In this document: positions 1,065 through 37,733 of the stretch, piece after piece
Layout of the letters: each line of letters starts with the position of its first letter
Numbering within the stretch: the stretch's first letter is position 1
Assembly: GCF_030684315.1 (NCBI RefSeq)
Contig: NC_081372.1
Coordinates: forward strand, 51,308,987 to 51,372,986
DNA from: Stegostoma tigrinum
Taxonomy: Eukaryota
Direction of reading: 5' to 3'
DNA: 64,000 nt
Translations under genes and position numbers: made by a program
Notes under the pieces: generated by a model
What the model saw: only the letters and a program-made list of their open reading frames with translations
What the model was told of the DNA's origin: nothing
The model's database searches: none

Positions 1065-1327
1065 TTATTGGGTCTTCTCCATCATCTTCACCCATTCTGT
1101 AGACAGAGGAAGGTATATGATTCTTTTAAATACTCAATACTAAACCAATATAGTATCACTAATGAATTTGTTTTTATTATTTGGACATACAACAAACATC
1201 AAGTTTCCCATCATTGTTCTTGTCCGATTGTTTCATGAATTCATGAATTTCCTCCTCTGCAAAATGTTTCCCAATAGCATTGATGACAACATTCAGCTCA
1301 TGACGATCGATGAAACCATCAGCATTG
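1065..1327 (-). pseudogene. Headless troponin-C-derived cassette, copy 1 (A-type): last two exons only
   Basis: Exon 1327-1191 (AG..GT, 137 nt) reads NADGFIDRHELNVVINAIGKHFAEEEIHEFMKQSDKNNDGKLDVC. Exon 1096-1065 reads (x)WVKMMEKTQ*. The splice junction T|AA makes a stop. TATA, leader exon and the 115-nt exon are deleted at a junction near 2715-2725. Confidence 0.8.
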
Positions 1328-3974: not shown

Positions 3975-3980
3975 TTTATT
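3975..3980 (-). terminator. Candidate polyadenylation signal AATAAA
   Basis: Lies ~280 nt after the stop codon. It is conserved at 29612-17, 34676-81, 56210-15 and 61274-79, and at 895-900 in the A-type. It is mutated in D-type pseudogenes and deleted in copy 3. Confidence 0.5.
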
Positions 3981-4260: not shown

Positions 4261-7032
4261 TTACTGGTCATTCTTCAACAACTTCGACCATGCTGTATGT
4301 GGTGGAAGACATTTGATTGAAAGCAGACATAGTTTAAATACTCAATAATAAACCCACACAATATTGATAATTTTTAAAAATTTGCACATACCATCAAAGT
4401 CAAGTTTGCCATCACTGTTCTTGTCCCACTCCCTGATGAGTTCATGAACTTCCTCCTCTGTAACATGCTCCCCAGAAGTCTTGAATGTAAAATACAGCTC
4501 AGAACATTCGATGAAGCCGTCAGCATTGCTAGAGTCATCAAGAAAAGTATGAAAGTCCCCAATCCAGCAATGTTATCTACCTTACCAAAATAGAAGTTGA
4601 GAAAAGATCATATCCATCTAATTTCACTTTCTTTCTGTCTGGAAGTTTACATTATTTAATCTCATCAAGTAATCCAATTTAAAAACTGGCGTACAACAAA
4701 TCTAGATATCATGCACAAACACATGTGGAAATAGCTTCATAAACCTCACATTTGAACTCACCTTTTTCATCCAAAAATGATACATTTCCCACACAATGTC
4801 TCAAATTTCTCAAGACCTGAATTCAATAGTGTGCCCTCTGCTCTGAAAGCAATTACAAATAATTTGTCATTATCACCTTCGATTATGTTCAATTGGAAAT
4901 GGCTTCCCTTTCATTCCAAAGATAAAATTGAATCACACTTTCTGCTCTTCCACAATTGTGTTCGTGACCGTTTTGTTTTCTGAAATCTTCTGTTGATATT
5001 CTCTACTTATGTTCTCCATCGCGTTTTACGTGGATAAGTGTGTTGCTGACAACGACTGCATTGTTGTCCATGCCTAATTGCACTTGAATGGAGTTGCTTG
5101 TTCAGTAATTTCAGAGTGCAGTTACAAATCAGACAGCGTTCCACTGGTCTGGATATATATTCAGGCCAGCAAGGTAAGGATGGCAGATTGTCTTCCTTGA
5201 AGGAGACAAGTGAACCACATAGGTTTTCACAACAACCTCTCAGACTTTTCACTATCATCAACGACATCAGTTTTATGCTGCAGATGTATTGATTGAGTTT
5301 TCTATTTCACTAGCTCACCGGATGAGATTTGAAAGTTTGTTCTTGGAGCATCAGCAGGATCCACTGGCTCACTCGTCTGGGACATTTCCATTATGCTACT
5401 GTCTCCCTGAAGTGAAAACATGCTGTCTATCCACATTTTCAAAACATCTGTGAGTATTGCAACTATCTATGGATCACTGTTTAGTCTTTTTTGTTGAAGG
5501 GAAAATAGTCTCAACTGTTAATACTTTCCTGATGTGTGAAGCTGAGGATTTTTAGTCTCAACCTGGTAAATCCTCAAAGAACTGTCTCCAGGCAACTCTT
5601 ATATCTTTTCGTATAAGATCATGAAAGGTGCACCATGTCACATGCAATGTAAATGAAACAAATTTCCATACATTTTTGCCAGTTGCGAGTCCCGCTAGAA
5701 ATGTTCTAGGAACAAATGTTTCCACACTTCTACCTCACTTTGGATATGAAGAAGTTATATTGAGCTGAAAACACACTTTTTTTTTCTTCTCTAGATAGAT
5801 GGTGTTAAAGCGAGTGACATTAATGATTCTCATTATTATTTCATATTTTCAGCTTCTGAAGTATTTTGTATAATTGATATACGTGCTTGCTACTTTGGTT
5901 TATTTACATGAAGCAAAAGCTAAATTCACCTTTGTGTCAACATATCAGGTGGCTGCTATTTCATCAGAGAGAGATGATTGGTGGTGACTTCGACCAGAGG
6001 GTCACTGTGACTGAGTTGAGTGTTGAGGGGAGTCATTCACGGTAACCTGAGGTGGTGTAGGAATTAAACCCACACTATTGTTTATGCTCTCCCTTGCAAA
6101 CCAGCTAACCAGGCAACTGGGCTAATCAGCCCCGTACCCTACATTTCCTTGAAGCAGGGATGTTTTTCTGATTGCTTTGCTGATCTTTTAGAAACTTGTC
6201 ACTTTTTCAATACATACAACGGAGAATCAACAAACTCAAAATAGAATTGCTGCGCTATCATGTTTACACCAGTCATGTAGAAGCTTAAACTCACCCATCA
6301 AATACACGAAACGATTCTGCGATGTCTTTGTCAGACTTTCCTTTCACTTCTTCTCTCATCAGCCTCCCCGCCATCTTCACCAAGAACTCTTCAAAATCAA
6401 TGGTGCCGCTACCTAAGACCACACTCAGTTGTAAGCTCTGTCCATTGTTAAACATGAATATTTGTGAACCAAACGATTTTTGAAGTGAAACTGCTAATGT
6501 TTAAGCTGCATGTTACCATTTTTGAGACCAATTGCAATCTGAGATTTGACTATCTTTGGGACACCCAAGATATCAGTCAAACATGAAATGAAGTAAACTG
6601 TTGCGTACTAAATCGTGCAGATATGAAATCATTTACAATTAGATTTAGAATTTTATTTATCATGTGTACTCAAGTACAGTATTACAAGAGTACAGTGAAA
6701 ATGCACAACATTGCCACGCATGTCCCATTTCTGGATCAAAGGTACTTGCGCCCAAAAAATATACGTACAAATTAGTAACTGAAAAAGAGTTAAAAAGTTA
6801 AGCATTACCTTCAGATAGCAAGTAGAAAAATAAAGAATAAAGGTCATAGTTAAGATTACAGTTCTTCTTAATTTAGTCTAGAAAGTAGAACAGCTTTTTT
6901 ACCTCCAGTATTTTTCTTATCTGCTCCAGAAGGAATCGTCGAAGAAATAACTTCACAGAGTAAAATTAGACACAACACAATTTGGATTCTCCTGTACATT
7001 GGAATGATCAAACACACAAACTGGAAGACCAT
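4261..7032 (-). CDS. Putative secreted troponin-C-derived EF-hand protein, copy 2 (intact 4-exon model, 138 aa)
   Basis: Exons 7032-6903, 6412-6295, 4528-4392 and 4292-4261, all GT-AG with phases 1/2/1. Product: [138 protein letters not shown]. The last three exons match TNNC2 exons 4-6 ([39 protein letters not shown] / NADGYID..GEHVTDEEI..DKNNDGRIDFD / EFLKMMEGVQ). TATA at 7201-7195, AATAAA at 3980-3975. Linkage of exon 1 is inferred. Confidence 0.72.
5947..6133 (-). mobile_element. Old tRNA-derived SINE in intron 2
   Basis: The minus strand reads GGGCTGATTAGCCCAGTTG (A box)...GTGGGTTTAATTCC (B box)...CAGGTTACC...GTGACCCTC...CACCACCAATCATCTCTCTCT, resembling a common shark SINE. Copies start near 10164, 15116, 26914, 31586, 36652, 41703, 53512, 58184 and 63249. 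Confidence 0.6.
6640..6868 (-). repeat. Probable interspersed-repeat remnant in intron 1
   Basis: TTAGATTTAGA..TCATGTGTACTCAAGTACAG..GTACAGTGAAAA..GTAGAAAAATAAAGAATAAA..AACATTACAG resembles a shark LINE-tail-like repeat. It is present in every full unit. Recognised from memory only. Confidence 0.35.
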
Positions 7033-7194
7033 TTTGCCAAACACTTCAACGCAGCTGGTAAGAATGTCCCTGTGCTTTCTTTGATTTGTCATTTTAATTG
7101 CCCATGATGCTCTCTGGCTGACATTGACTTGGCCTGCTGCACTGTTCCAAGGAAGGTCAATGTGACAAACTGTGCCTTGTCTGTCAATAAAGCA

Positions 7195-7201
7195 TTTTAT
7201 A
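7195..7201 (-). promoter_or_regulatory. TATA box (TATAAAA) of the repeated gene
   Basis: GCTATAAAATGC on the minus strand, ~165 nt upstream of the AAAATGG start. It is invariant in all 9 copies that include this region (also 11408-14, 16359-65, 28158-64, 32831-37, 37896-902, 42946-52, 54756-62, 59429-35). Confidence 0.6.
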
Positions 7202-7809
7202 GCTGCATGGGCTGCAACTTTTCATTCCATTTCACAGAGTGCTACATTTTGTTTCCAAATCTTACCTTTTGAATGTTTGTTCAGTAAAGGTGCTCACCTG
7301 CTTCAGGCACATTTTGGTTTATTTGTTTGATTTCTTGCCCCAAATCAATTTGCTTTAGCCCCAGAAGACCGACTCTTCTGTCATCAATTTTCCCTGTCTT
7401 CCATTGCATCACAGATCTTTCTTTTGCACAAAAGATGGCCGGGTAAAGAACTAAAATGACATGCCTCTGAAATCTGCAAGATGAAAGAATGAAAGCCCCC
7501 ATTGAAAACCCAGCACAGCAATTGCGTTTGGAATTTTCATGATTCCGTCACCCTGTGAGACTTCTTCACCTCCCCGTGCCAACTTCCAGATTCTGTGAGT
7601 GCCTGCCTCGAGATAAGAATTTTCCTCCAAGCAGTTTGGTCTTGATATCTGTCCAGCACATAGATACATATATAGCAAGGTACGATCACCTGGACGTGCC
7701 TACGATTCACGTGTGACTGTTTTGGTTGAATATCTTGAGCCACTGCCATCCATTTAGTGCAAGTCAGCTCACAATGTCTGCATGGAGGGAATACCGGGTA
7801 TGTGAAACA

Positions 7810-8464: not shown

Positions 8465-11245
8465 TTACTGGTCATTCTTCAACAACTTCGACCATTCTGT
8501 AAAGGGTGGAAGACATTTGATTGAAAGCAGACATCGTTTAAATACTCAATAATAAACCCACACAATATTGATAATTTTTAAAAATTTGCACATACCATCC
8601 AAGTCAAGTTTGCCATCAGTGTTCTTGTCCCACTCCCTGATGAGTTCATGAGCTTCCTCCTCTGTAACATGCTCCCCAGCAGTCATGATGGCCAAATGCA
8701 GCTCAGAACAATCGATGAAGCCGTCAGCATTGCTAGAGTCATCAAGAAAAGTATGAAAGTCCCCAATCCAGCAATGTTATCTACCTTACCAAAATAGAAG
8801 TTGAGAAAAGATCATATCCATCTAATTTCACTTTCTTTCTGTCTGGAAGTTTACATTATTTAATCTCATCAAGTAATCCAATTTAAAAACTGGCGTACAA
8901 CAAATCTAGATATCATGCACGAACACATGTGGAAATAGCTTCATAAACCTCACACTTGAACTCACCTGTGTCATCCAAAAATGATACAGTTCCCACACAA
9001 TATCTCAAATTTCTCAAGACCTGAATTCAATAGTGTGCCCTCTGCTCTGAAAGCAATTACAAATAATTTGTCATTATCACCTTCAATTATGTTCAACTGG
9101 AAATGGCTTCCCTTTCATTCAAATGATAATATTGAATCACACTTTCTGCTCTTCCACAATTTTGTTCGTGGCAGTTTTGTTTTCTGAAAATCTTCTGTTG
9201 ATATTCTCTACTTATGTTCTCCATCGCCTTTTACATGGATAAGTGTGTTGCTGACAAGGACTGCATTGTTGTCCATGCCTAATTGCACTTGAATGGAGTT
9301 GTTTGTTCAGTAATTTCAGAGTGCAGTTACAAATCAGACAGCGTTCCACTGGTCTGGATATATATTCAGGCCAGCAAGGTAAGGATGGCAGATTGTCTTC
9401 CTTGAAGGAGACAAGTGAACCACATAGGTTTTCACAACAACCTCTCAGACTTTTCACTATCATCAACGACATCAGTTTTATGCTGCAGATGTATTGATTG
9501 AGTTTTCTATTTCACTAGCTCACCGGATGAGATTTGAAAGTTTGTTCTTGGAGCATCAGCAGGATCCACTCGCTCACTAGTCTGGGACATTTCCATTATG
9601 CTACTGTCTCCCTGAAGTGAAAACATGCTGTCTATCCACATTTTCAAAACATCTGTGAGTATTGCAACTATCTATGGATCACCCTTTAGACTTTTTTGTT
9701 GAAGGGAAAATAGTCTCAACTGTTAATACTTTCCTGATGTGTGAAGCTGAGGATTTTTAGCCTCAACCTGGTAAATCCTCAAAGAACTGTCTCCAGGCAA
9801 CTCTTATAGTACAAAATCTTTTAGTATAAAATCATGAAAGGTGCACCATGTCACATGCAATGTAAATGAAACAAATTTCAATCCATGTTTGACAGTTGCG
9901 AGTCCTGCTGGAAGTGTTCTAGGAACAAATGTTTCCACACTTCTACCTCACTTTGGATATGAAGAAGTTATACTGAGGTGAAGACACAGACTCTTTTTTT
10001 TTCTTCTCTATATAGATGGTGTTAAAGCGAGTGGCATTAATGATTCTCATTATTATTTCATATTTTCAGCTTCTGAAGTATTTTGTATAATTGATATACT
10101 TGTTTGCTACAATGGTTTATTTACATGAACTAAAAGGTAAATTGACCTTTGTGTCAACATTTCAGGTGGCTGCTATTTCATTAGCGAGAAATGATTGGTG
10201 GTGACTTCGACCAGAGGGTCACTGTGACTGAGTTGAGTGTTGAGGGGAGTCATTCACGGTAACCTGAGGTGGTGTAGGAATTAAACCCACACTATTGTCT
10301 ATGCTCTCCCTTGCAAACCAGCTAAACAGGCAACAGAGCTAATCGTCCCCGTACCCTACATTTCCTTGAAGCAGGGATGTTTTTCTGATTGCTTTGCGGA
10401 TCTTTTAGAAACTTGTCTCTTTTTCAATGCAAACAACGGAGAATCAACAAACTCAAAATAGAATTGTTGCTCTATCATGTTTATACCAGTCATGTAGAAG
10501 CTCAAACTCACCCATCAAATACATGAATGAATTTTGCGATGTCTTTATCAGACTTCCCTTTCACTTCTTCTCTCATCTGCCTCGCCATTGTCACCAAGAA
10601 CTCTTCAAAATCAATGGTGCCGCTACTTAAGACCACACTCAGTTGTAAGCTCTGTCCATTGTTAAACATGAATATTTGTGAACCAAACGATTTTTGAAGT
10701 GAAACTGCTAATGTTTTTGCTGCATGTTACCCTTTTTGAGACCAATTGCAATCTGAGATTTGACTATCTTTGGGACACCCAAGATATCAGTCAAATGTGA
10801 AATGGAGTAAACTGTTGCGTACTAAATCGTGAAGATATGAAATAATTTACAATTAGATGTAAAATTTTTTTATCATGTGTACTCAAGTACAGTATTACAG
10901 GTGTACAGTGAAAATGTACAACATTGCCACGCATGTCCCATTTCTGGATCAAAGGTAGTTGCGCCCAAAAAATGTCGGTACAAAATAGTAACTGTAAAAG
11001 AGTTAAAAAGTTAAGCATTACCTTCAGATAGCAAGTAGAAAAATAAAGAATAAAGGTCATAGTTAACATTACAGTTCTTCTTAATTTAGTCTAGAAAGTA
11101 GAACAGCTTTTTTACCTCCAGTGTTTTTCTTATCTGCTCCAGAAGGAATCGTCGAAGAAATAACTTCACAGATTAAAATTACACACGACACAATTTAAAT
11201 TCTGCTGTACATTGGAACGATCAAACACACAAACTGGAAGACCAT
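8465..11245 (-). pseudogene. Troponin-C-derived gene copy 3, multiply disabled
   Basis: Exons 11245-11116 (nonsense ATT TAA after MYSRI), 10626-10512 (acceptor TTAG changed to TTAA), 8732-8596 and 8496-8465. About 860 nt of 3' region, including the AATAAA, is deleted directly after the stop. There is also a ~90 nt promoter deletion at ~11445. Confidence 0.8.
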
Positions 11246-13433: not shown

Positions 13434-16196
13434 TTACTGGACATTCTGCAACAACTTAGACCATTCTGAAAAGTTTGGAAGATATTTGATTGAAAACCTA
13501 AATAGTTTAAATACTCAATACTAAACCAACACAATATCGCTAATTTTTAAAAAATTTGCACATACCATCAAAATCAAGATTGCATCACTGTTCTTGTCCC
13601 ACTCGCTGATGAATTCATGAAATTCCTCCTCGGTAACATGCTCCCCAGCCTCCTCGATGACAATATTCAGCTCATCACGATCAATGAGACTGTCAGCATT
13701 GCTAGAGTCATCAAGAAAAGTGTGAATGTCACAATCCAGCAATGTTTTCTACATTACCAAAATAGAAATAGTGAAAAGATCATATTCATCTAATTTCAGT
13801 TTCTTTCTGTCTGGAAATTTACATTGTTTAATCTCATCAAGTAATCCATTTTAATCACTGGCTTACAACAAATCGAGATATGTTGTACAATCATCTGAGG
13901 AAACAGCTTCATACAGCTTAGGTCTAAACTCACCTGTTCCATCCAAAAATGATATATTTCCCACACAATGTCTCAAATTTCTCAAGGCCTGAATTGCACC
14001 GTGTGCCCTCTGCTCTGAAAGCAATTACAAAATATTTGTCATTATAGCCTTTGACTCTCTGAGTTGGAACTAGCTTCCCTTTCATTCCAGTGACAATAAT
14101 GAATCACACTTGCTGTGTCCACAATTTGGTTCATGACAGTTTTCTTCTGAAAATCTTCGATTGATTTTCTCTTCTTATGTTCTCCATCACTTTTTACGTG
14201 GATAAGTGTGTTGCTGACAAGGACTGCATTGTTGTCCATGCCTAATTGCTCTTTAATGGGGTTGCTTGTTCAGTAATTTCAGAGTGCAGTTACAAATCAG
14301 ACAACGTTCCACTGGTCTGGATATATATTCCGGCCAGCAAGGTAAGGATGGCAGATTGTCTTCCTTGAAAGAGACAAGTGAACCACATAGGTTTTCACAA
14401 CAATCAATAACACTTGTCACGATCATCACCACATCACTTTTATGCTGCAGATGTATTGATTGAGTTTACTATATCACTAGCTCACAGGATGAGATTTAAA
14501 AGTTTGTTTCTGGAGCATCAGCAGGCTCCACTGGCTCGCTAGCCCGGGACGTTTCCACTGTGCTACTATCTCCCTGAAGTGAGAACATGCTGTCTGTCAA
14601 AGTTGTCAAAACATCTGTGAGTATTGCATATATCTATGGATCACTCTTTAGTCTTCTTTGTTGAAGGGACAATAGACTCAACTGTTAATACTTTCCTGAT
14701 GTGTGAAGCTGAGGATTTTTAGTCTCAACCTGGTCAATCCTCAAAGAACTGTCTCCAGGCAACTCTGATATCTTTTAGTATAAAATCATGAAAGGTGCAC
14801 CATGTCACATGCAATGTAAATGAAACAAATTTCAATACATGTTTGCCAGTTGCGAGTCCTGCTAGGAATGTTCTAGGAACAAATGTTTCCACACTTCTAC
14901 CTCACTTTGGATATGAAGAAATTATATTGAGCTGAAAACACAGACTCTTTTTTGCTTCTCTAGGTAGATGGTGTTAAAGCGAGTGACATTAATGATTCTC
15001 ATTATTATTTCATCTTTTCAGCTTCTGCAGTATTTTGTATCATTGACATACTCGTTTGCTGCAACGGTTTACTTACATGAAGCAAAAGGTAAAGTCACCT
15101 TTGTGTCAACATATCAGGTGGCTGCTATTTCATTAGAGAGAGATGATTGGTGGTGAGTTCGACCAGACGGTCACTGTGACTGAGTTGAGAGTTGAGGGGT
15201 GTCATTCACGGTAACTTGAGCTGGTGTAGGAATTAAACCCACACTATTGTGTATGCTCTCCCTTGCAAACCAGTTAACCAGGGAACTGAGCTAATCGGTC
15301 CCGTACCCTACATTTCCTTGAAGCAGGGATGTTTTTCTGATTGCTTTGCTGATCTTTTAGAAACTTGTCTCTTTTTCAATACATACAACGGAGAATCAAC
15401 AAACTCAAAATAGAATTGCTGCGCTATCATGTTTATACCAGTCATGTAGAATCTCAAACTCACCCATCAAATACGCGAAAGAATTCTGCGATGTCTTTGT
15501 CAGACATCCTTTCACTTCTTCTCTCATTTGACTCGCCATCGTCACTAAGAACTCTTCAAAATCAATGGTGCCGCTACCTAAGACCACACTCAGTTGTAAG
15601 CTCTGTCCATTGTTAAACATGAATATTTGTGAACCAAACGATTTTTGAAGTGAAACTGCTAATGTTTAAGCTGCATGTTACCCTTTTTGAGACCAATTGC
15701 AATCTGAGAATTGACTATCTTTGGGACACCCAAGATATCAGGCAAACGTGAAATGAAGTAAACTGTTGCGTACTAAATCGTGAAGATATGAAATAATTTA
15801 CAATTAGATTTAGAATTTTTTTATCATGTGTACTCAAGTACAGTATTACAGGAGTACAGTGAAAATGTACAACATTGCCACGCATGTCCCATTTCTTGAT
15901 AAAAGGTACTTGCGCCCAAAAAATGTAGGTACAAATTAGTAACTGAAAAAGAGTTAAAAAGTTGTGCGTTACCTTCAGATAGCAAGTAGAAAAATAAAGA
16001 ATAAAGATCATAGTTAACATTACAGTTCTTCTTAATTTAGTCTAGAAAGTAGAACAGCTTTTTTACCTCCAGTATTTTTCTTCTCTGCTCCAGAAGGATT
16101 CGTCGAAGAAATAACTTCACAGAGTAAAGTTACGCACAACACAATTTGGATTCTGCTGTACATTGGAACGATCAAACGCACAAACTGGAAGACCAT
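13434..16196 (-). pseudogene. Troponin-C-derived gene copy 4 (D-type), frameshifted
   Basis: Exons 16196-16067, 15577-15464 (114 nt, -1 frameshift at VKG), 13701-13566 (136 nt, -1 frameshift after DKNSD) and 13465-13434 (EWSKLLQNVQ*). ORF-track peptides 15405-15620 and 13521-13742 show the EF-hand fragments running out of frame. Confidence 0.82.
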
Positions 16197-22100: not shown

Positions 22101-23455
22101 AGGGAGACGACGCACAGGTCATGAAATTTTTGTATCACAGTGGGTTGCTGATGGATGTTGGCTGTTTTATTGGACATTCTCCAACATCTTCGACCATTCT
22201 GTGAAGGGTGGAAGACATTTGATTGAAAGCAGACATAGTTTAAATACTCAGTAATAAACCCACACAATATCGCTAATTTTTAAACATTTGCACATACCAT
22301 CAAAGTCAAGTTTGCCATCACTGTTCTTGTCCCACTCCCTGATGAGTTCATGAACTTCCTCCTCTGTAACATGCTCCCCAGCAGCCATGATGGCAATATG
22401 CAGCTCAGAACATTCGATGAAGCCGTCAGCATGGCTAGAGTCATCAAGAAAAGTATGAAAGTCCCCAATCCAGCAATGTTATCTGCCTTACCAAAATAGA
22501 AGTTGAGAAAAGATCATATCCATCTAATTTCACTTTCTTTCTGTCTGGAAGTTTACATTATTTAATCTCATCAGGTAATCCAATTTAAAAACTGGCTTAC
22601 AACAAATCTAGATGTCATGCACGAACACATGTGGAAATAGCTTCATAAACCTCACATTTGAACTCACCTGTTTCATCCAAAAATGATACAGTTCCCACAC
22701 AATGTCTCAAATTTCTCAAGACCTGAATTCAATAGTGTGCCCTCTGCTCTGAAAGCAATTACAAATAATTTGACATTATCACCTTGAATTATGTTCAATT
22801 GGAAATGGCTTCCCTTTCATTCAAATGATAATATTGAATCACACTTTGTGCTCTTCCACAATTTTGTTCGTGACAGTTTTGTTTTCTGAAAATCTTCTGT
22901 TGATATTCTCTCCTTATGTTCTCCATCGCCTTTTACGTGGATAAGTGTGTTGCTGACAACGACTGCATTGTTGTCCATGCCTAATTGCACTTGAATGGAG
23001 TTGCTTGTTCAGTAATTTCAGAGTGAAGTTACAAATCAGACAGCGTTCCACTGGTCTGGATATATATTCAGGCCAGCAAGGTAAGGATGGCAGATTGTCT
23101 TCCTTGAAGGAGACAAGTGAACCACATAGGTTTTCACAACAACCACTCAGACTTTTCACTATCATCAACGACATCAGCTGCAGATGTATTGATTGAGTTT
23201 TCTATTTCACTAGCTCACCGGATGAGATTTGAAAGTTTGTTCTTGGAGCATCAGCATGATCCACTGGCTCGCTAGTCTGAGACATTTCCATTATGCTACT
23301 ATCTCCCTGAAGTGAAAACATGCTGTCTATCCACATTTTCAAAACATCTGTGAGTATTGCAACCATCTATGGATCACCGTTTAGTCTTCTTTGTTGAAGG
23401 GAAAATAGTCTCAACTGTTAATACTTTTACTTAATAACAGTTAAAACTGTTAATA

Positions 23456-23760
23456 ACCGCCGACGAAACCCCGCCCACGGTCGACGCCGACGGAACCCCG
23501 CCCACGGTCGACGCCGAAGGAACCCCGCCCACGGCACCGGAACCGCTGCAGCAGTTACCACCTCCACGTCCAGGTACTTCACCACACACACGACCCTCAC
23601 CGCAGCTGCTTCACCCACCCCGATCCTCCAACCGCTGACGGAACCCCGCCCACGGTCGACGCCGACGGAACCCCGCCCACGGCCGACGTAACCCCGCCCA
23701 CGGCCGACGCCGGCGAAACCCCGCCCACGGCCGACGGAACCCCGCCCACGGCCGACGACC
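23456..23760 (+). repeat. GC/CpG-rich minisatellite (CCGACGGAACCCCGCCCACGG[TCGACG]) at the Penelope 5' end
   Basis: About 7 imperfect 21/27-nt units in two blocks (23456-23535, 23632-23760). The second copy is at 50043-50358. Confidence 0.85.
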
Positions 23761-26360
23761 TCATCGCTCCGGCCACAACCTCCACAGCCAGCAACCCCAG
23801 AGGAGACAGCCACACTGAGCCCTGCCGCATCTTCACCATCCCCCCAGACCTCCCACTGACTGAGGACGAACGGTCAGTCCTTAGCAAGGGGCTCACCTTT
23901 GTCCCCCTACAACCACACATCAACGAATACCAGTCACGGTTGGACATAGAGCAGTTTTTCCGCCGTCTTCGCCTCCATGCCAACTTCTTCAACCGGTAAC
24001 CCAACCCTCCTTCCACTGACCCCTTCACCCGCTTCCAGCACAAGTCCTCCTCCTGGACACCACCCCCAGGCCTCCTGGCCTCCCTCGACCTCTCCATCTC
24101 CAACTGCCGTCGAGACATCAACCGCCTCAACCTCTCCACCCCTCTCACCCACTCCAACCTCTCCCCCGCAGAACGGGCAGCCCTCCGTTCCCTCCGCTCC
24201 AACCCCAACCTCACCATCAAACCCGCAGACAAGGGTGGCGCAGTGGTATTATGGCGCACTGACCTCTACATCGCCGAGGCCAGACGCCAACTCTCCGACA
24301 CCACCTCCTACTGCCTCCTCGATCATGACCCCACACCCGAGCACCAAACCATCATCTCCAACACCATTCACGACCTCATCACCTCAGGGGACCACCCACC
24401 CACAGCCTCCAACCTCATTGTTCCCCAACCCCGCACGGCCCGTTTCTATCTCCTTCCCAAAATCTACAAACCTGCCTGCCCTGGTCGACCCATCGTCTCA
24501 GCCTGCTCCTGCCCCACCGAACTCATCTCCACCTATCTGGACTCCATTTTCTCCCCTTTGGCCCAGGAACTCCCCACACGTCCGTGACACCACCCACACC
24601 CTCCACCTCCTCCAGGACCTCCAATTCCCTGGCCCCCAACACCTCATATTCACCATGGAAGTCCAGTCCCTGTACACCTGCATTCCGCATGGAGATGGCC
24701 TCAAGGCCCTCCGCTTCTTCCTGTCCCGCAGGCCTGACCAGTCCCCCTCCACCGACACTCGCATCCGCCTAGCTGAACTCGTCCTCACACTCAACAACTT
24801 CTCTTTTGACTCCTCCCACTTTCTACAGACTAAGGGGGTGGCCATGGGCACCCGCATGGGCCCCAGCTATGCCTGCCTCTTTGTAGGTTACGTGGAACAG
24901 TCCCTCTTCCACACCTACACAGGCCCCAAACCCACCTCTTCCTCCGGTACATTGATGACTGTATCGGCGCCGCCTCTTGCTCCCCAGAGGAGCTCGAACA
25001 GTTCATCCACTTCACCAACACCTTCCACCCCAACCTTCAGTTCACCTGGGCCATCTCCAGCACATCCCTCACCTTCCTGGACCTCTCAGTCTCCATCTCA
25101 GGCAACCAGCTTGTAACTGATGTCCATTTCAAGCCCACCGACTCCCACAGCTACCTAGAATACACCTCCTCCCACCCACCCTCCTGCAAAAATTCCATCC
25201 CCTATTCCCAATTCCTCCGCCTCCGCCGCATCTGCTCCCACGATAAGACATTCCACTCCCGCACATCCCAGCTGTCCAAGTTCATTAAGGACCGCAACTT
25301 TCCCCCCACAGTGATCGAGAACGCCCTTGACCGCGTCTCCCGTATTTCCCGCAACACATCCCTCACACCCCGCCCCCGCCACAACCGCCTTAAGAGGATC
25401 CCCCTCGTTCTCACACACCACCCTACCAACCTCCGGATACAACGCATCATCCTCCGACCATTTCGCCATTTACAATCCGACCCCACCACCCGACATTTTT
25501 CCATCCCCACCCCTGTCTGCTTTCCGGAGAGACCACTCTCTCCGTGACTGCCTTGTTCGCTCCACACTGCCCTCCAAACCCACCACACCTGGCACCTTCC
25601 CCTGCAACCGCAGGAAATGCTACACTTGCCCCCACACCTCCTCCCTCACCCCTATCCCAGGCCCCAAGATGACATTCCACATTAAGCAGAGGTTCACCTG
25701 CACATCTGCCAATGTGGTATACTGCATCCATTGTACCCGGTGTGGCTTCCTCTACATTGGGGAAACCAAGCGGAGGCTTGGAGACCGCTTTGCAGAACAC
25801 CTCAGCTCAGTTCGCAACAAACAACTGCACCTCCCAGTCGCAAACCATTTCCACTCCCCCTCCCATTCTCTTGATGACATGTCCATCATGGGCCTCCTGC
25901 ACTGCCACAATGATGCCACCCAAAGGTTGCAGGAACAGCAACTCATATTCCGCCTGGGAACCCTGCAGCCATATGGTATCAATGTGGACTTCACCAGTTT
26001 AAAAATCTCCCCTTCCCCTACTGCATCCCTAAACCAGCCCAGTTCGTCCCCTCCCCCAACTGCACCACACAACCAGCCCAGCTCTTCCCCCCGGCCCACT
26101 GCATCCCAAAACCAGTCCAACCTGTCTCTGCCTCCCTCACCGGCTCTTCCTCTCACCCATTCCTTCCTCCCACCCCAAGCCGCACCCCCAGCTACCTACC
26201 AACCTCATCCCACCTCCTTGACCTGTCCGTCTTCCCTGGAATGACCTATCCCCTCCCTACCTCCCCACCTATACTCTCTCCACCTATCTTCTTTACTCTC
26301 CATCTTCGGTCCGCCTCCCCCTGTCTCCCTATTTATTCCAGTTCCCTCTCCCCATCCCCC

Positions 26361-26394
26361 TCTCTGATGAAGGGTCGAGGCCCGAAACGTCAGC
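26361..26394 (+). ncRNA. Minimal hammerhead ribozyme motif in the Penelope 3' terminal region
   Basis: CTGATGA (26364-70), A, stem II GGGT-CGAG-GCCC, GAAA, C, GTC. This is the minimal HHR architecture known from Penelope-like elements. Confidence 0.75.
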
Positions 26395-29300
26395 TTTTGT
26401 GCTCCTTGGCCTGCTGTGTTCATCCAGCCTCACATTTTATTATCTTGGAATGCTCCAGCATCTGCAGTTCCCATTATCTCTGTTAATACTTTCCTGCTGT
26501 GTGAAGCTGAGGATTTTTAGCCTCAACCTGGTAAATCCTCAAAGAACTGTCTCCAGGCGACTCTTATATCTTTTCGTATAAGATCATGAAAGGTGCACCA
26601 TGTCACATGCAATGTAAATGAAACCAATTTCAACACATGTTTGCCAGTTGCGAGTCCCGCTAGAAATGTTCTAGGAACAAATGTTTCCACACTTCTACCT
26701 CACTTTGGATATGACGAAGTTATATTGAGCTGAAAACACAGACTCTTTTTCACTTCTCTGGATAGATGGTGTTAAAGCGAGTGACATTAATGATTCTCAT
26801 TATTATTTCATCTTTTCAGCTTCTGAAGTATTTTGTATAATTGATATACTTATTTGCTACAATGGTTTATTTACATGAACCAAAAGGCAAAATCACCTTT
26901 GTGTCAACATATCAGGTGGCTGCTACTTCATTAGAGAGAGATGATTGGTGGTGACTTCGACCAGAGGGTCACTGTGACTGAGTTGAGTGTTGAGGGGAGT
27001 CATTCACGGTAACCTGAGGTGGTGTAGGAATTAAACCCACACTATTGTTTATGCTCTCCCTTGCAAAGTAGCTAAACAGGCAACTTAGCTAGTCGGCCCC
27101 GTACCCTACATTTCCTTGAAGCAGGGATGTTTTTCTGATTGCTTTGCTGATCTTTTAGGAACTTGTCACTTTTTCAATACATACAATGGAGAATCAACAA
27201 ACTCAAAATAGAATTGCTGCGCTATCATGTTTATATCAGTCATGTAGAATCTCAAACTCACCCATCAAGTACACAAAAGAATTCTGCGATGTCTTTGTCA
27301 GACTTTCCTTTCACTTCTTCTCTCATCTGCCTCGCCAACGTCACCAAGAACTCTTCAAAATCAATGGTGCCGCGACCGAAGACCACACTCTATTGTGAGC
27401 TCTGTCCATTGTTAAACATGAATATTTGTGAACCAAACAATTTTTGAAGAGAAACTGCAAATGTTTTAGCTGCATGTTACCCTTTTTGAGACCAATTGCA
27501 ATCTGAGATTTGACTATCTTTGGGACACCCAAGATATCAGTCAAATGTGAAATGCAGAAAACTGTTGCGTACTAAATCGTGAAGATATGAAATAATTTAC
27601 AATTAGATTTAGAATTTTTTTATCATGTGTACTCAAGTACAGTATTACAAGAGTACAGTGAAAATGTACAACATTGCCATGCGTGTCCCATCTCTGGATC
27701 AAAGGTAGTTGCGCCCAAAAAATGTAGGTACAAATTAGTAACTGAAAAAGAGTTAAAAAGTTAAGCATTACCTTCAGATAGCAAGTAGAAAAATAAAGAA
27801 TAAAGGTCATAGTTAACATTACAGATCTTCTTAATTTAGTCTAGAAAGTAGAACAGCTTTTTAACCTCCAGTATTTTTCTTATCTGCTCCAGAAGGAATC
27901 GTCGAAGAAATAACTTCACAGAGTAAAATTAGACACAACACAATTTGGATTCTGCTGTACATTGGAACGATCAAACGCACAAACTGGAAGACCATTTTGC
28001 CGAACACTTCAACGCAACTGGTAAGAATGTCCCTGTGCTTTCTTTGACGTGTCACTTAAATTGCCCATGATGCTCTCTGGCTGACATTGACTTGGCCTGC
28101 TGCACTGTTCCAAGGAAGGTCAAGGTAACAAACTGTGCCTTGTCTTTCAATAAGGCATTTTATAGCTGCATGGGTTCCAACTGTTCATTCCATTTCACAG
28201 AGTGCTCCATTTTGTTTCCAAATCTTTCGTTTTGAATGCTTGTTCAGTGAAGGTGCACACCTGCTTCAGGCACATTTTGGTTTATTTGTTTGCTTTCTTG
28301 CCCCAAATCAATTTGCTTTGGCCCCAGAAGACCGACTCTTCTGTCATCAATTTTGCCTGTCTTCCATTGCATCACAGATCTTTCTTTTGCACGAAAGATG
28401 GCCGGGTGGAGAACTAAAATGACAGGCCTCTGAAATCTGCAAGATGAAAGAATGAAGGACCCCATTGAAAGCCCAGCACAGCACTTCCAGGTGGTAATGT
28501 TCATGGGATAAGCATATTTTTTCGCCAGAACCTTGGTGAATTTCTGTGTTGCATCTTGTAAATGGTGCTGAATGTATTGTTGCACTACTTGATCCTTGAT
28601 TTCATTTTTGTGTCTCATACTTGAAATTGTGTGAGGCAATTGCCATCTCATTTTGTCTATAACACTAACTGTTGCACAGTGGATCAGTGTTTGGTACTGC
28701 TTCCTCACAGTGACAGAGAGCTGGGTGCAATTCCACCCTTGGCCAACTGTCTGCGTGGAATTTGCACATTCTCCCTTCGTGTACATGGCTTTACTCTGGC
28801 TACTGCCTTTACTTCCCGTAGACCAAAGATGAGCCTGTTAGTGAACAAACCATGCTTAATTGCCCATGGTATCTTGGGGAGGGTAGACTAGATGAATAAG
28901 CCATGGGAGATGCATGGTTACAAGGATAGAGGAGAGTGAGGGATGCTCTTTGGAGGGTTGGTGTGGACTTGATGGACTAAATAGACTGTTTCCACAGTGT
29001 AAGGATTCTATGATAAAACGTAATGGTGCAATGGTTTACTCAGAACAATCATTTCAGTGAACTGTCACCAAGTGCAGCTTGTTGTGCTATAGACTGTGCT
29101 GTGATTCAGTGTGAAGCATTCTTGTGTGTGAATTCAAATTTGTAGTTTCCAATCTGACACTGACAGCAGCTGATTAATGTGCAGTGAATGGCAGTGATAA
29201 TGTTGCACTTTAAGATAATTTGTCATTTGGATGACAGCCGTCATCTGTGTATCCTGGGATATGATTTGAAAGGAGAGCTGGAGAGGCCAATATTTATACT

Positions 29301-29897: not shown

Positions 29898-32668
29898 TTA
29901 CTGGTCATTCTTCAACAACTTTGACCATTCTGTAAAGGGTGGAAGACATTTGATTGAAAGCAGACATAGTTTAAATACTCAGTAATAAACCCACACAATA
30001 TCGCTAATTTTTAAACATTTGCACATACCATCCAAGTCAAGTTTGCCATCAGTGTTCTTGTCCCACTCCCTGATGAGTTCATGAGCTTCCTCCTCTGTAA
30101 CATGCTCCCCAGCAGCCATGATGGCAATATGCAGCTCAGAACAATCGATGAAGCCGTCAGCATGGCTAGAGTCATCAAGAAAAGTATGAAAGTCCCCAAT
30201 CCAGCAATGTTATCTACCTTACCAAAATAGAAGTTGAGAAAAGATCATATCCATCTAATTTCACTTTCTTTCTGTCTGGAAGTTTACATTATTTAATCTC
30301 ATCAGGTAATCCAATTTAAAAACTGGCTTATAACAAATCTAGATGTCATGCACGAACACATGTGGAAATAGCTTCATAAACCTCACACTTGAACTCACCT
30401 TTTTCATCCAAAAATGATACAGTTCGCACACAATGTCTCAAATTTCTCAAGACCTGAATTCAATAGTGTGCCCTCTGCTCTGAAAGCAATTACAAATAAT
30501 TTGACATTATCACCTTGAATTAAGTTCAATTGGTAATGGCTTCCCTTTCATTCCAATGATAATATTGAATCACACTTTGTGCTCTTCCACAATTTTGTTC
30601 GTGACAGTTTTGTTTTCTGAAAATCTTCTGTTGATATTCTCTACTTATGTTCTCCATCGCGTTTTACGTGGATAAGTGTGTTGCTGACAACGACTGCATT
30701 GTTGTCCATGCCTAATTGCACTTGAATGGAGTTGCTTGTTCAGTAATTTCAGAGTGCAGTTACAAATCAGACAGTGTTCCACTGGTCTGGATATATATTC
30801 AGGCCAGCAAGGTAAGGATGGCAGATTGTCTTCCTTGAAGGAGACAAGTGAACCACATAGGTTTTCACAACAACCTCTCAGACTTTTCACTATCATCAAC
30901 GACATCAGTTTTATGCTGCAGATGTATTGATTGAGTTTTCTATTTCACTAGCTCACCGGATGAGATTTGAAAGTTTGTTCTTGGAGCATCAGCAGGATCC
31001 ACTGGCTCACTCGTCTGGGACATTTCCATTATGCTACTATCTCCCTGAAGTGAAAACATGCTGTCTATCCACATTTTCAAAACATCTGTGAGTATTGCAA
31101 CTATCTATGGATCACCGTTTCGTCTTCTTTGTTGAAGGAAAAATACTCTCAACTGTTAATACTTTCCTGCTGTGTGAAGCTGAGGATTTTTAGCCTCAAC
31201 CTGGTAAATCCTCAAAGAACTGTCTCCAGGCGACTCTTATATCTTTTCGTATAAGATCATGAAAGGTGCACCATGTCACATGCAATGTAAATGAAACAAA
31301 TTTCAACACATGTTTGCCAGTTGCGAGTCCCGCTAGAAATGTTCTAGGAACAAATGTTTCCACACTTCTACCTCACTTTGGATATGACGAAGTTATATTG
31401 AGCTGAAAACACAGACTCTTTTTCACTTCTCTAGATAGATGGTGTTAAAGCGAGTGACATTAATGATTCTCATTATTATTTCATCTTTTCAGCTTCTGAA
31501 GTATTTTGTATAATTGATATACTTATTTGCTACAATGGTTTATTTACATGAACCAAAAGGCAAAATCACCTTTGTGTCAACATATCAGGTGGCTGCTACT
31601 TCATTAGAGAGAGATGATTGGTGGTGACTTCGACCAGAGGGTCACTGTGACTGAGTTGAGTGTTGAGGGGAGTCATTCATGGTAACCTGAGGTGGTGTAG
31701 GAATTAAACCCACACTATTGTTTATGCTCTCCCTTGCAAAGTAGCTAAACAGGCAACTTAGCTAGTCGGCCCCGTACCCTACATTTCCTTGAAGCAGGGA
31801 TGTTTTTCTGATTGCTTTGCTGATCTTTTCGGAACTTGTCACTTTTTCAATACATACAATGGAGAATCAACAAACTCAAAATAGAATTGCTGCGCTATCA
31901 TGTTTATATCAGTCATGTAGAATCTCAAACTCACCTATCAAATACACGAAAGAATTCTGCGATGTCTTTGTCAGACTTTCCTTTCACTTCTTCTCTCATC
32001 TGCCTCGCCAACGTCACCAAGAACTCTTCAAAATCAATGGTGCCGCGACCTAAGACCACACTCAGTTGTAAGCTCTGTCCATTGTTAAACATGAATATTT
32101 GTGAACCAAACAATTTTTGAAGAGAAACTGCAAATGTTTTAGCTGCATGTTACCCTTTTTGAGACCAATTGCAATCTGAGATTTGACTATCTTTGGGACA
32201 CCCAAGATATCAGTCAAACGTGAAATGGAGAAAACTGTTGCGTACTAAATCGTGAAGATATGAAATAATTTACAATTAGATTTAGAATTTTTTTATCATG
32301 TGTACTCAAGTACAGTATTACAAGAGTACAGTGAAAATGTACAACATTGCCATGCGTGTCCCATTTCTGGATCAAACGTAGTTGTGCCCAAAAAATGTAG
32401 GTACAAATTAGTAACTGAAAAAGAGTTAAAAAGTTAAGCATTACCTTCAGATAGCAAGTAGAAAAATAAAGAATAAAGGTCATAGTTAACATTACAGATC
32501 TTCTTAATTTAGTCTAGAAAGTAGAACAGCTTTTTAACCTCCAGTATTTTTCTTATCTGCTCCAGAAGGAATCGTCGAAGAAATAACTTCACAGAGTAAA
32601 ATTAGACACAACACAATTTGGATTCTGCTGTACATTGGAACGATCAAACGCACAAACTGGAAGACCAT
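29898..32668 (-). CDS. Putative secreted troponin-C-derived EF-hand protein, copy 7 (open 4-exon model, 137 aa)
   Basis: Exons 32668-32539, 32049-31935, 30165-30029 and 29929-29898. Product: MVFQFVRLIVPMYSRIQIVLCLILLCEVISSTIPSGADKKNTG-GRGTIDFEEFLVTLARQMREEVKGKSDKDIAEFFRVFDS-HADGFIDCSELHIAIMAAGEHVTEEEAHELIREWDKNTDGKLDLD-EWSKLLKNDQ*. TATA at 32837-32831, AATAAA at 29617-29612. The exon-1 donor is weak (G|GTTAAA). Confidence 0.66.
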
Positions 32669-34961: not shown

Positions 34962-37733
34962 TTACTGGTCATTCTTCAACAACTTTGACCATTCTGTAAA
35001 GGGTGGAAGACATTTGATTGAAAGCAGACATAGTTTAAATACTCAGTAATAAACCCACACAATATCGCTAATTTTTAAACATTTGCACATACCATCCAAG
35101 TCAAGTTTGCCATCAGTGTTCTTGTCCCACTCCCTGATGAGTTCATGAATTTCCTCCTCTGTAACATGCTCCCCAGCAGCCATGATGGCAATATGCAGCT
35201 CAGAACAATCGATGAAGCCGTCAGCATGGCTAGAGTCATCAAGAAAAGTATGAAAGTCCCCAATCCAGCAATGTTATCTACCTTACCAAAATAGAAGTTG
35301 AGAAAAGATCATATCCATCTAATTTCACTTTCTTTCTGTCTGGAAGTTTACATTATTTAATCTCATCAGGTAATCCAATTTAAAAACTGGCTTATAACAA
35401 ATCTAGATGTCATGCACGAACACATGTGGAAATAGCTTCATAAACCTCACACTTGAACTCACCTTTTTCATCCAAAAATGATACAGTTCGCACACAATGT
35501 CTCAAATTTCTCAAGACCTGAATTCAATAGTGTGCCCTCTGCTCTGAAAGCAATTACAAATAATTTGACATTATCACCTTGAATTAAGTTCAATTGGTAA
35601 TGGCTTCCCTTTCATTCAAATGATAATATTGAATCACACTTTGTGCTCTTCCACAATTTTGTTCGTGACAGTTTTGTTTTCTGAAAATCTTCTGTTGATA
35701 TTCTCTACTTATGTTCTCCATCGCGTTTTACGTGGATAAGTGTGTTGCTGACAACGACTGCATTGTTGTCCATGCCTAATTGCACTTGAATGGAGTTGTT
35801 TGTTCAGTAATTTCAGAGTGCAGTTACAAATCAGACAGCGTTCCACTGGTCTGGATATATATTCAGGCCAGCAAGGTAAGGATGGCAGATTGTCTTCCTT
35901 GAAGGAGACAAGTGAACCACATAGGTTTTCACAACAACCTCTCAGACTTTTCACTATCATCAACGACATCAGTTTTATGCTGCAGATGTATTGATTGAGT
36001 TTTCTATTTCACTAGCTCACCGGATGAGATTTGAAAGTTTGTTCTTGGAGCATCAGCATGATCCACTGGCTCGCTAGTCTGAGACATTTCCATTATGCTA
36101 GTACCTCCCTGAAGTGAAAACATGCTGTCTATCCACATTTTCAAAACATCTGTGAGTATTGCAACTATCTATGGATCACCCTTTAGACTTTTTTGTTGAA
36201 GGGAAAATAGTCTCAACTGTTAATACTTTCCTGATGTGTGAAGCTGAGGATTTTTAGCCTCAACCTGGTAAATCCTCAAAGAACTGTCTCCAGGCAATTC
36301 TTATATCTTTCAGTATAAGATCATGAAAGGTGCACCATGTCACATGCAATGTAAATGAAACAAATTTCCATACATGTTTGCCAGTTGCGAGTCCTGCTAG
36401 AAGTGTTCTAGGAACAAATGTTTCCACACTTCTACCTCACTTTGGAGATGAAGAAGTTATACTGAGGTGAAAACACAGACTCTTTTTTTTCTTCTCTATA
36501 TAGATGGTGTTAAAGCAAGTGACATTAATGATTCTCATTATTATTTCATATTTTCAGCTTCTGAAGTATTTTGTATAATTGATATACTTGTTTGCTACAA
36601 TGGTTTATTTACATGAAGCAAAAGGTAAATTGACCTTTGTGTCAACATATCAGGTGGCTGCTATTTCATTAGCGAGAAATGATTGGTGGTGACTTCGACC
36701 AGAGGGTCACTGTGACTGAGTTGAGTGTTGAGGGGAGTCATGCACGGTAACCTGAGGTGGTGTAGGAATTAAACCCACACTATTGTTTATGCTCTGCCTT
36801 GCAAACCAGCTAACCAGGCAACAGAGCTAATCGGCCCCGTACCCTACATTTCCTTGAAGCACGGATGTTTTTCTGATTGCTTTGCTGATCTTTTAGAAAC
36901 TTGTCTCTTTTTCAATACATACAACGGAGAATCAACAAACTCTAAATAGAATTGTTGCTCTATCATGTTTCTACCAGTCATGTAGAAGCTCAAACTCACC
37001 CATCAAATACATGAATGAATTTTGCGATGTCTTTATCAGACTTTCCTTTCACTTCTTCTCTCATCTGCCTCGCCATCGTCACCAAGAACTCTTCAAAATC
37101 AATGGTGCCGCTACCTAAGACCACACTCAGTTGTAAGCTCTGTCCATTGTTAAACATGAATATTTGTGAACGAAACGATTTTTGAAGAGAAACTGCTCAT
37201 GTTTTAGCTGCATGTTACCCTTTTTGAGACCAATTGCAATCTGAGATTTGACTATCTTTGGGACACCCAAGATATCAGTCAAATGTGAAATGGAGTAAAC
37301 TGTTGCGTACTAAATCGTGAAGATATGAAATAATTTACAATTAGATGTAGAATTTTTTTATCATGTGTACTCAAGTACAGTATTACAGGCGTACAGTGAA
37401 AATGTACAACATTGCCACGCATGTCCCATTTCTGGATCAAAGGTAGTTGCGCCCAAAAAATGTCGGTACAAAATAGTAACTGTAAAAGAATTAAAAAGTT
37501 AAGCATTACCTTCAGATAGCAAGTAGAAAAATAAAGAATAAAGATCATAGTTAACATTACAGTTCTTCTTAATTTAGTCTAGAAAGTAGAACAGCTTTTT
37601 TACCTCCAGTATTTTTCTTACCTGCTCCAGAAGGAATCGTCAAAGAAATAACTTCACAGAGTAAAATTACACACGACACAATTTGAATTCTCCTGTACTT
37701 TGGAACGATCAAACACACAAACTGGAAGACCAT
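34962..37733 (-). CDS. Putative secreted troponin-C-derived EF-hand protein, copy 8 (open 4-exon model, 137 aa)
   Basis: Exons 37733-37604, 37114-37000, 35229-35093 and 34993-34962. Product: MVFQFVCLIVPKYRRIQIVSCVILLCEVISLTIPSGAGKKNTG-GSGTIDFEEFLVTMARQMREEVKGKSDKDIAKFIHVFDG-HADGFIDCSELHIAIMAAGEHVTEEEIHELIREWDKNTDGKLDLD-EWSKLLKNDQ*. All junctions GT-AG. TATA at 37902-37896, AATAAA at 34681-34676. Confidence 0.68.

What the first reader, a model, noticed from the sequence alone, without database searches (positions are those of the whole stretch)
4473..4497. Hypervariable helix after EF-hand III: nearly all substitutions are non-synonymous
The seven codons after ..EL read YFTFKTS (copy 2), HLAIMTA (3), NIVIEEA (4/9), NVVINAI (A-type) and HIAIMAA (6,7,8,11,12,13). 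Copy 2 versus copy 6 is TAT TTT ACA TTC AAG ACT TCT vs CAT ATT GCC ATC ATG GCT GCT: 8 differences in 21 nt changing all 7 residues, while the neighbouring codons and introns are nearly identical. The preceding helix also varies ([32 protein letters not shown]). In troponin C these E/F helices line the C-lobe hydrophobic target-binding cleft. This suggests diversifying selection on ligand specificity, as seen in toxin, immune or reproductive gene families.
Basis: partly seen in the sequence, partly recalled or inferred. Interest (0 to 1): 0.75.

Follow-up and report, generated by a model that had tools for sequence, protein, structure and literature searches.

The report
Fast-evolving, signal-tagged shark troponin C halves
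A shark chromosome carries dozens of tandem copies of the back half of the muscle calcium-sensor gene troponin C; each has gained a new leader that looks like a secretion signal, and one small helix changes its amino acids about three times faster than neutral DNA, which suggests a muscle protein was repurposed into a family of diversifying binding proteins.

Summary
The 21 nt (window 4474-4494, minus strand; helix F of troponin C) differ at 8 of 21 sites between copies about 4% apart, the most divergent window of the unit. Across 26 unique copies it carries 44 non-synonymous and 2 synonymous changes: 3.4 times the intron rate, with a normal synonymous rate. None of 1,074 noncoding windows and none of 1,500 neutral or gene-conversion simulations reached this. 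The window lies in an array of 36 exon-5 copies of the 3' half of TNNC2 (probably zebra shark), without exons 1-3. Each full unit instead starts with a new 130-nt exon encoding a signal-peptide-like leader, made by an inversion in TNNC2 intron 2 that includes an antisense Penelope-like retroelement remnant. A bamboo shark model has the same open exon. 14 of 27 units are intact, and frame-breaking mutations are depleted (3 versus about 22 expected). Caveats: the same seven residues are already the most variable patch among shark TNNC2 orthologues; only some face the cleft; the rest of the exon evolves near neutrally; expression, secretion and ligand are inferred. Best reading: a birth-and-death family of probably secreted C-lobe-only troponin C proteins under diversifying selection.

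The parts
4474..4494 (-). Hypervariable helix-F heptad of copy 2 (YFTFKTS; cardiac TnC positions 118-124)
4392..4528 (-). TNNC2 exon 5 homologue, copy 2 (EF-III loop, helices F and G, EF-IV loop)
4261..4292 (-). TNNC2 exon 6 homologue, copy 2 (helix H, stop)
6295..6412 (-). TNNC2 exon 4 homologue, copy 2 (half of EF-II, helix D, linker, helix E); 3-nt in-frame insertion
6903..7032 (-). New first coding exon (43 codons + 1 nt): Kozak-like ATG, basic pair, 11-residue hydrophobic core, small-residue region; signal-peptide-like (inferred)
6988..7426 (+). Inverted piece of TNNC2 intron 2 containing a Penelope-like GIY-YIG remnant; read antisense it supplies the TATA-like box, the ATG and the first ~15 codons
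7195..7201 (-). TATAAAA about 165 nt upstream of the ATG (already present antisense in the parent intron)
3975..3980 (-). AATAAA poly(A) signal inherited from TNNC2; kept in 14 of 14 intact units
29898..32668 (-). Intact unit, copy 7 (HIAIMAA; heptad 30111-30131)
34962..37733 (-). Intact unit, copy 8 (HIAIMAA; heptad 35175-35195)
56496..59266 (-). Intact unit, copy 12 (HIAIMAA; heptad 56709-56729)
61560..63711 (-). Copy 13, exons 4-6 (first exon lies 331 nt past the window end); open frame, stop lost, C-terminus extended
8465..11245 (-). Copy 3 (HLAIMTA): broken, stop in first exon and AA acceptor at exon 4
13434..16196 (-). Copy 4 (NIVIEEA): broken, 1-nt deletions in exons 4 and 5; copy 9 at 40021-42783 is the same
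22167..27995 (-). Copy 6 (HIAIMAA): CG acceptor at exon 4 and a 3-kb retroelement in intron 4; copy 11 at 48754-54593 is the same
1066..1327 (-). A-type orphan exon 5+6 fragment (NVVINAI); also 18885-19146 and 45472-45733

Best explanation
A birth-and-death array of repurposed troponin C genes. (1) Shown by sequence: the 3' part of TNNC2 was duplicated, and an inversion inside intron 2 placed an antisense Penelope-like remnant (TATA, ATG, ~15 codons) in front of T-rich intron sequence, creating a new 130-nt first exon. (2) Shown or inferred: that exon first spliced to exon 3, as in the bamboo shark model and in two decayed edge copies here; exon 3 was then deleted and the C-lobe-only unit amplified to more than 30 copies. 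(3) Inferred: the leader works as a signal peptide or signal anchor, so the product (about 105 residues if cleaved near residue 31) reaches the secretory lumen or the outside. There the two retained EF-hands would be Ca-loaded and the C-lobe cleft open. (4) Shown statistically: helix F and one face of helix G were repeatedly re-coded under positive selection. (5) Inferred, ligand unknown: these positions form the cleft rim and neighbouring surface that grip an amphipathic helix, so the paralogues probably differ in which extracellular peptide or protein they bind (parasite, microbial, dietary-toxin or reproductive partner). About half of the copies have since died.
For: Heptad: 44 N / 2 S changes, N rate 3.4x intron (Poisson P=8e-12), S rate 0.5x. 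Without the parent gene: 37 N / 2 S in 19 unique copies. Codon positions 1+2 hold 38 steps against a maximum of 24 in 1,074 noncoding windows; 0 of 300 simulations reach the ratio in each of 5 neutral or conversion settings, allowing for post-hoc window choice. Bursts lie on at least five separate branches; 5 of 7 copy pairs have P<0.05. M8 vs M8a 2dL=20.2 with 26 sequences and 5.6 with the 14-sequence intact set (13 units plus the parent). Sites with posterior >0.9 are six heptad residues plus cardiac-equivalent 129, 133, 136, 140 and 160; 120, 136 and 160 are three of five named cleft-contact residues. Frameshifts: 2 observed vs 12.1 expected; stops: 1 vs 9.7. First exon intact in 16 of 18 unique copies vs about 1.5 in neutral simulation. 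The bamboo shark protein P0099 has the same 43-codon exon, 21-24 of 31 identical in the leader but 2-4 of 12 behind it. EF-IV ligands D-N-D and Gly have no amino-acid changes. Database gene models join this exon to exon 4, some with exon skipping or alternative donors; that such isoforms need transcript support is my recollection of annotation practice.
Against: Outside the heptad, exon 5 evolves at about the intron rate (N/intron 0.95); the first exon is at 0.87 and exon 4 at 0.67, so residue-level purifying selection is weak. 13 of 27 units are broken, and 5 more exon-5 copies are orphans. The heptad is already hypervariable in single-copy orthologues (3.7 extra residue types per column vs 0.29). 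My codon-model test is unreliable under heavy conversion: 2 of 9 such null replicates exceeded the observed statistic, 3 of 22 fits failed, and several were negative. The disruption counts leave out degraded edge copies, which favours intact ones. T-rich intron DNA encodes hydrophobic runs by chance, and the TATA and poly(A) motifs were inherited from the parent locus. Transcription, secretion and binding are inferred, not measured.
Confidence: 0.6

Rival explanations
1. Expressed, selected genes, but the leader is not a secretion signal. The products are cytosolic or membrane-associated C-lobe fragments (from the new ATG or an exon-4 Met) that act as Ca/Mg buffers or as decoys for troponin I or IQ-type helices.
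For: The first Met lies 15 residues before the hydrophobic core, and the internal Met12 is not conserved. AlphaFold gives the leader pLDDT below 50, which is uninformative. No signal predictor was available. Database models P0095-P0097 use other starts.
Against: The hydrophobic core is kept in all 16 intact unique copies (KD11 at least 2.1); charged or Pro residues enter it in 2 of 16 vs 45-49% of simulated copies. Bamboo shark conservation is concentrated in residues 1-31.
Confidence: 0.17
2. The selection is old. The heptad bursts happened while the family was active; today's array is largely a decaying segmental repeat, amplified by unequal crossing-over with no present function.
For: 13 of 27 units are broken, and broken types (five NIVIEEA, five A-type) were themselves amplified in 17.8-26.6 kb higher-order blocks up to 99.3% identical. 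Omega is near 1 outside the heptad.
Against: One of the largest bursts (YFTFKTS, 7 changes) lies on a short, recent branch, between copies only about 4% apart. All 14 intact units keep the poly(A) signal, while 7 broken ones lost it.
Confidence: 0.15
3. No selection: the heptad is a local mutation or micro-conversion hotspot (template switching, multi-nucleotide events) in pseudogenes.
For: Short inverted repeats exist in or near the heptad. The same place is labile in orthologues. Multi-nucleotide events were not modelled.
Against: Synonymous positions are not raised (2 of 46 changes, P=2.7e-4). Changes fall at first positions (20, 11 and 8 by position vs 4.9 expected each). Derived states show no excess of inverted-repeat perfection in 7 of 7 comparisons (P 0.11-0.98). 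The YFTFKTS codons occur in no other copy that could have donated them.
Confidence: 0.08

Closest known systems
Fast skeletal troponin C (TNNC2); parent gene at G000:C23:51,817,180-51,822,872
   Same: Exons 4-6 with the same phases, homologous introns at about 70-75% identity, EF-hands III and IV, poly(A) signal. Best PDB matches by sequence (4tnc, 1ncx) and by fold (1top).
   Different: No exons 1-3, so no N-helix, no EF-I and only half of EF-II: no regulatory N-lobe. New hydrophobic leader; more than 30 copies instead of one; omega near or above 1 instead of near-invariance.
Chiloscyllium plagiosum 'troponin C, skeletal muscle-like, partial' (P0099)
   Same: Same 43-codon leader exon in front of troponin C sequence.
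   Different: Joined to exon 3, so it keeps both N-lobe loops; partial model; copy number and helix F not seen.
Secretory-pathway EF-hand proteins (CREC family, SPARC EC domain) (recalled)
   Same: Signal peptide plus EF-hands working in a Ca-rich compartment.
   Different: Unrelated by descent; conserved, low-copy genes; not derived from troponin C. Pfam SPARC_Ca_bdg matches are weak and lie under stronger EF-hand matches.
Birth-and-death families recruited from housekeeping genes under positive selection (venom, reproductive, immune proteins), and transposon-exonised leaders (recalled)
   Same: Tandem expansion, many pseudogenes, selection focused on a binding surface, leader gained from mobile DNA.
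   Different: No troponin C case was found in my paper searches; no gland, tissue or activity is known.

Membership tests
Troponin C (TNNC2) by descent | Homology and exon-intron structure of TNNC2 exons 4-6 | tested here: met
Troponin C as a functional thin-filament Ca sensor | N-lobe with EF-I and EF-II (exons 2-3) | tested here: not met
   Exon 2 found only in the parent gene; exon 3 only in two decayed edge copies and in fragments beside the parent
Troponin C as a functional thin-filament Ca sensor | Intact C-lobe EF-III and EF-IV loops | tested here: met
   Pfam EF-hand_7 above cut-off; EF-IV ligands unchanged; EF-III position 3 is His in the HIAIMAA copies
Troponin C as a functional thin-filament Ca sensor | Binds the troponin I N-terminal helix | not tested
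   No complex prediction was run
Secreted protein | N-terminal signal peptide (basic n-region, hydrophobic core, small residues at -3/-1) | tested here: inconclusive
   Hydropathy and conservation fit; no signal predictor available; n-region is long
Secreted protein | Protein found outside the cell | not testable with these tools
   Needs proteomics or a reporter assay
Positively selected multigene family | Non-synonymous rate above neutral at specific sites, robust to recombination | tested here: met
   the codon-model test alone is unreliable
Positively selected multigene family | Purifying selection on the rest of the gene | tested here: inconclusive
   Frame-breaking changes depleted and exon 4 at 0.67, but the rest of exon 5 is at 0.95
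Penelope-like retroelement (source of the leader's 5' part) | C-terminal GIY-YIG endonuclease | tested here: inconclusive
   The better-preserved copy at window 25315-26241 matches Pfam GIY-YIG at E=4e-4, 21 bits, just under the 22.6 cut-off; the remnant aligns to it at DNA level; the RT frames had no Pfam match, so 'Penelope-like' rests partly on recalled motifs

The most novel reading that the evidence does not exclude
Carpet sharks turned an intracellular muscle calcium sensor into a secreted binding-protein family. A retroelement-derived leader arose before the zebra shark and bamboo shark lineages split. The zebra shark lineage then dropped the regulatory lobe and built a repertoire of C-lobe 'clamps' whose helix-F/G surface is in an arms race with an extracellular partner. 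The same helix being hypervariable in the muscle TNNC2 of all sampled sharks and rays hints that the parent protein is itself under an unrecognised conflict at that surface.
Probability: 0.4. Interest if true: 0.85.

Novelty: new variant of a known kind. Interest (0 to 1): 0.72.

Why it matters
Vertebrate troponin C is a textbook conserved, intracellular, low-copy protein; PMC9825255 (passages) describes two gene groups, TNNC1 and TNNC2. A lineage-specific array of half-genes with a new leader exon and focused positive selection, in the slowly evolving shark genome, would be a clean case of new-gene origin. Every step can still be read in the DNA: parent gene, inversion, exon loss, amplification and decay. 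It also yields direct tests of which tissue makes it, whether it is secreted and what the cleft variants bind. Databases already hold these models under the label 'troponin C, skeletal muscle-like', which hides the changed architecture.

Tried and rejected
RNA search: no RNA holder listed. The four runs listed (X1-X4, one sample, unknown kind) cover introns as well as exons and list no joint at the exon boundaries; they look like DNA and may be the assembly's own sample, so I use them for nothing. Two earlier first-exon candidates (window about 6518 and about 6810) were rejected because their donors and frames are not conserved. Template switching: no excess. Positive selection on helix E/exon 4 (P=0.17) and on the leader exon (P=0.98): not supported. 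Codon-model P values: not relied on alone after the conversion null. Searching the genome with the degraded retroelement peptide returned only itself, and Pfam found nothing for it. Leader homologues: only same-species models in two word-indexed searches (4 and 10 hits); the profile search gave 4 hits, one a low-complexity chance match (P0100). ESM Atlas gave generic EF-hand clusters only. AlphaFold leader and linker were unusable, pLDDT below 50 for residues 1-21 and 23-68. Earlier scan findings: none. Paper searches found no description of this array; I saw listings only for: troponin C + shark + tandem, Stegostoma + troponin (0 papers), zebra shark/genome/gene family expansion/troponin, troponin C + signal peptide + secreted + shark, TNNC2 + positive selection + cartilaginous fish, and Penelope-like/exonization/signal peptide/antisense. 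PMC10620051 has 0 mentions of troponin or TNNC in its main text; supplements were not read. No complex prediction was run because no partner is proposed.

Full report
Observation. The window is a minus-strand tandem array with a unit of about 5 kb and higher-order duplications (11444-37402 vs 38032-64000 at 99.3%). The 21 nt are 4474-4494. Against six HIAIMAA units, copy 2 differs at 8 of 21 sites on a 3.9-4.5% noncoding background (P about 1e-6), the top window of the unit in each comparison.

What the array is. The window is G000:C23:51,308,987-51,372,986. In the fetched stretches there are 36 exon-5 copies between 51.22 and 51.47 Mb. The 240 kb from 51.54 to 51.78 Mb was not fetched, but genome searches showed no copy there. 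A complete TNNC2 gene (exons 2-6 read) lies head-to-head at 51.817-51.823 Mb and a TNNC1-like gene on C13. The units align to TNNC2 from inside intron 2 onwards. Exon 2 occurs only in the parent; exon 3 survives only in two decayed edge copies and in fragments beside the parent. Database proteins on a contig of the same length are labelled Stegostoma tigrinum, so the organism is probably the zebra shark.

The new first exon. Those models begin with 43 residues that are not troponin; in copy 2 they map to 7032-6903 and splice in phase to exon 4. The 5' part (6988 upward) matches TNNC2 intron 2 in reverse and the 3' part (6978-6884) matches it forward, so an inversion built the exon. The inverted piece is a remnant of a GIY-YIG retroelement. 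A better copy in the window matches Pfam GIY-YIG just under the cut-off; calling it Penelope-like is partly recall. The peptide has a basic pair, an 11-residue hydrophobic core (KD11 2.1-3.3) and small residues after it, the layout of a signal peptide (my reading; no predictor available). It is open in 16 of 18 unique copies where neutral simulation leaves about 1.5. A bamboo shark model, P0099, carries the same exon joined to exon 3, with 21-24 of 31 identities in the leader and 2-4 of 12 behind it. It was the only real non-zebra-shark hit among 4. Some database models show exon skipping and alternative donors; from recall of annotation practice, this hints at transcript support.

Integrity. 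Of 27 units with four exons called, 14 have an ATG, an open frame and GT/AG sites; 13 are broken, and five further copies are orphan exon-5/6 fragments. In the window 5 of 10 units are intact. Over the three long exons (18-20 unique sequences each, degraded edge copies left out), 2 frameshifts and 1 stop occur against 12.1 and 9.7 expected from flanking DNA. Splice losses and exon 6 were not counted. All 14 intact units keep the AATAAA. TATAAAA is kept in 18 of 21 unique upstream sequences, but it pre-exists in the parent intron, so it is weak evidence.

Selection on the heptad. I used 26 of 34 unique exon-5 loci (8 degraded or rearranged ones dropped, parent included) on a tree from noncoding flanks. 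The heptad holds 46 steps, 44 non-synonymous and 2 synonymous. Noncoding windows average 17 and reach at most 35 of 1,134. The N rate is 3.4 times and the S rate 0.5 times the intron rate. Without the parent the count is 37 N and 2 S. Positions 1+2 hold 38 steps vs a maximum of 24 in 1,074 noncoding windows. Neutral simulations with up to 300 conversion tracts, scanning for the best window, reached the observed ratio in 0 of 300 runs in each of 5 settings; these do not model regional hotspots or multi-nucleotide events. Seven copy pairs, not fully independent, give 20, 11 and 8 differences at codon positions 1, 2 and 3 vs 4.9 expected each. My own codon models favour a class with omega about 3.5 (M8 vs M8a 2dL=20.2; 5.6 for the intact set). 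However, that test misbehaved under heavy simulated conversion (2 of 9 replicates above the observed value, 3 of 22 failed), so I rely on the parsimony tests. Template switching was tested and not supported.

Against a simple reading. The rest of exon 5 runs at 0.95 of the intron rate, the leader at 0.87 and exon 4 at 0.67. Helix E shows no significant signal. In 23 TNNC2 orthologues the same seven columns are the longest unconserved run inside the protein. In 15 chondrichthyan ones they show 3.7 extra residue types per column vs 0.29 elsewhere. The patch was therefore labile before the array; whether by tolerance or by selection could not be tested without nucleotide sequences.

Structure. 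The model has a confident EF-hand pair (residues 71-137, pLDDT 60-85 by block) and an unreliable N-terminal half; its best fold match is skeletal troponin C. Using the genome's own TNNC1-like exon for register, the heptad is cardiac 118-124. PMC3726641 (passages) names Met120, Leu121, Leu136, Met157 and Val160 as contacts at the C-domain cleft, and Thr124 and Gly140 as ligand hydrogen-bond partners in one model. Sites with posterior above 0.9 correspond to 118, 119, 120, 122, 123, 124, 129, 133, 136, 140 and 160; position 121 is spared. Selection thus covers part of the cleft rim plus what I recall as the outer face of helix F.

Verdict. The feature is real, and the selection signal is robust at the heptad. 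The larger finding is the architecture: C-lobe-only troponin C units with a retroelement-born, signal-like leader shared with another carpet shark family, evolving by birth and death. I put 0.6 on a secreted or luminal, diversifying binding-protein family, 0.17 on functional but not secreted, 0.15 on formerly selected and now decaying, and 0.08 on a mutational hotspot. Expression, secretion and ligand remain inferred. My paper searches (listings only, plus keyword passages of PMC9825255, PMC10620051 and PMC3726641) found no description; supplements were not read.

Noticed in passing
P0004, P0006-P0008, P0010, P0011, P0014, P0055-P0072; L031:2596-2730: Single-copy shark and ray TNNC2 is nearly invariant except for this same helix-F heptad (for example KLLIMTG, WDLIKEA, IEVLKGA, IQAIKYS). 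This may be an unrecognised selection hotspot in the muscle protein itself.
   Followed up: partly
window 23428-26479 and 50015-53077: About 3-kb GC-rich retroelement with RT-like frames and a C-terminal GIY-YIG motif (Penelope-like), frameshifted, inserted in intron 4 of copies 6 and 11. Many more copies occur in the fetched loci.
   Followed up: partly
window 11444-37402 vs 38032-64000: 26.6-kb higher-order duplication at 99.3% identity; could be a recent duplication or an uncollapsed haplotype. Blocks of about 17.8 and 18.8 kb also recur.
   Followed up: no
G000:C23:51,827,000-51,852,200 (L031-L033, L037): Decayed partial TNNC2 duplicates just downstream of the parent gene already carry the inverted intron-2 arrangement with a broken leader exon; probable relics of the founding event.
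   Followed up: partly
window 1066-1327, 18885-19146, 45472-45733: Orphan A-type exon 5+6 fragments. Database models P0037 and P0038 use the A-type last exon as the end of the neighbouring YFTFKTS unit, so alternative last-exon use is possible.
   Followed up: no
units at window 4528 vs -32051, and -51262: Exon shuffling between units: the YFTFKTS exon 5 is paired with two different exon-4 types, and a HIAIMAA exon 5 sits behind a deeply diverged exon 4 and leader.
   Followed up: partly
L031:2842-2872 and orthologues: Chondrichthyan TNNC2 has Trp at the start of helix H (DEW) where the bird sequence P0020 has Phe, and most array copies add a second Trp just before EF-IV (REWD), at a cleft-rim site flagged as selected.
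   Followed up: no
P0049 (Hemitrygon akajei, 82 aa): A stingray C-lobe-only 'troponin C-like' model with its own helix F (RNLFLAI); partial TNNC2 duplicates may recur in other elasmobranchs.
   Followed up: no
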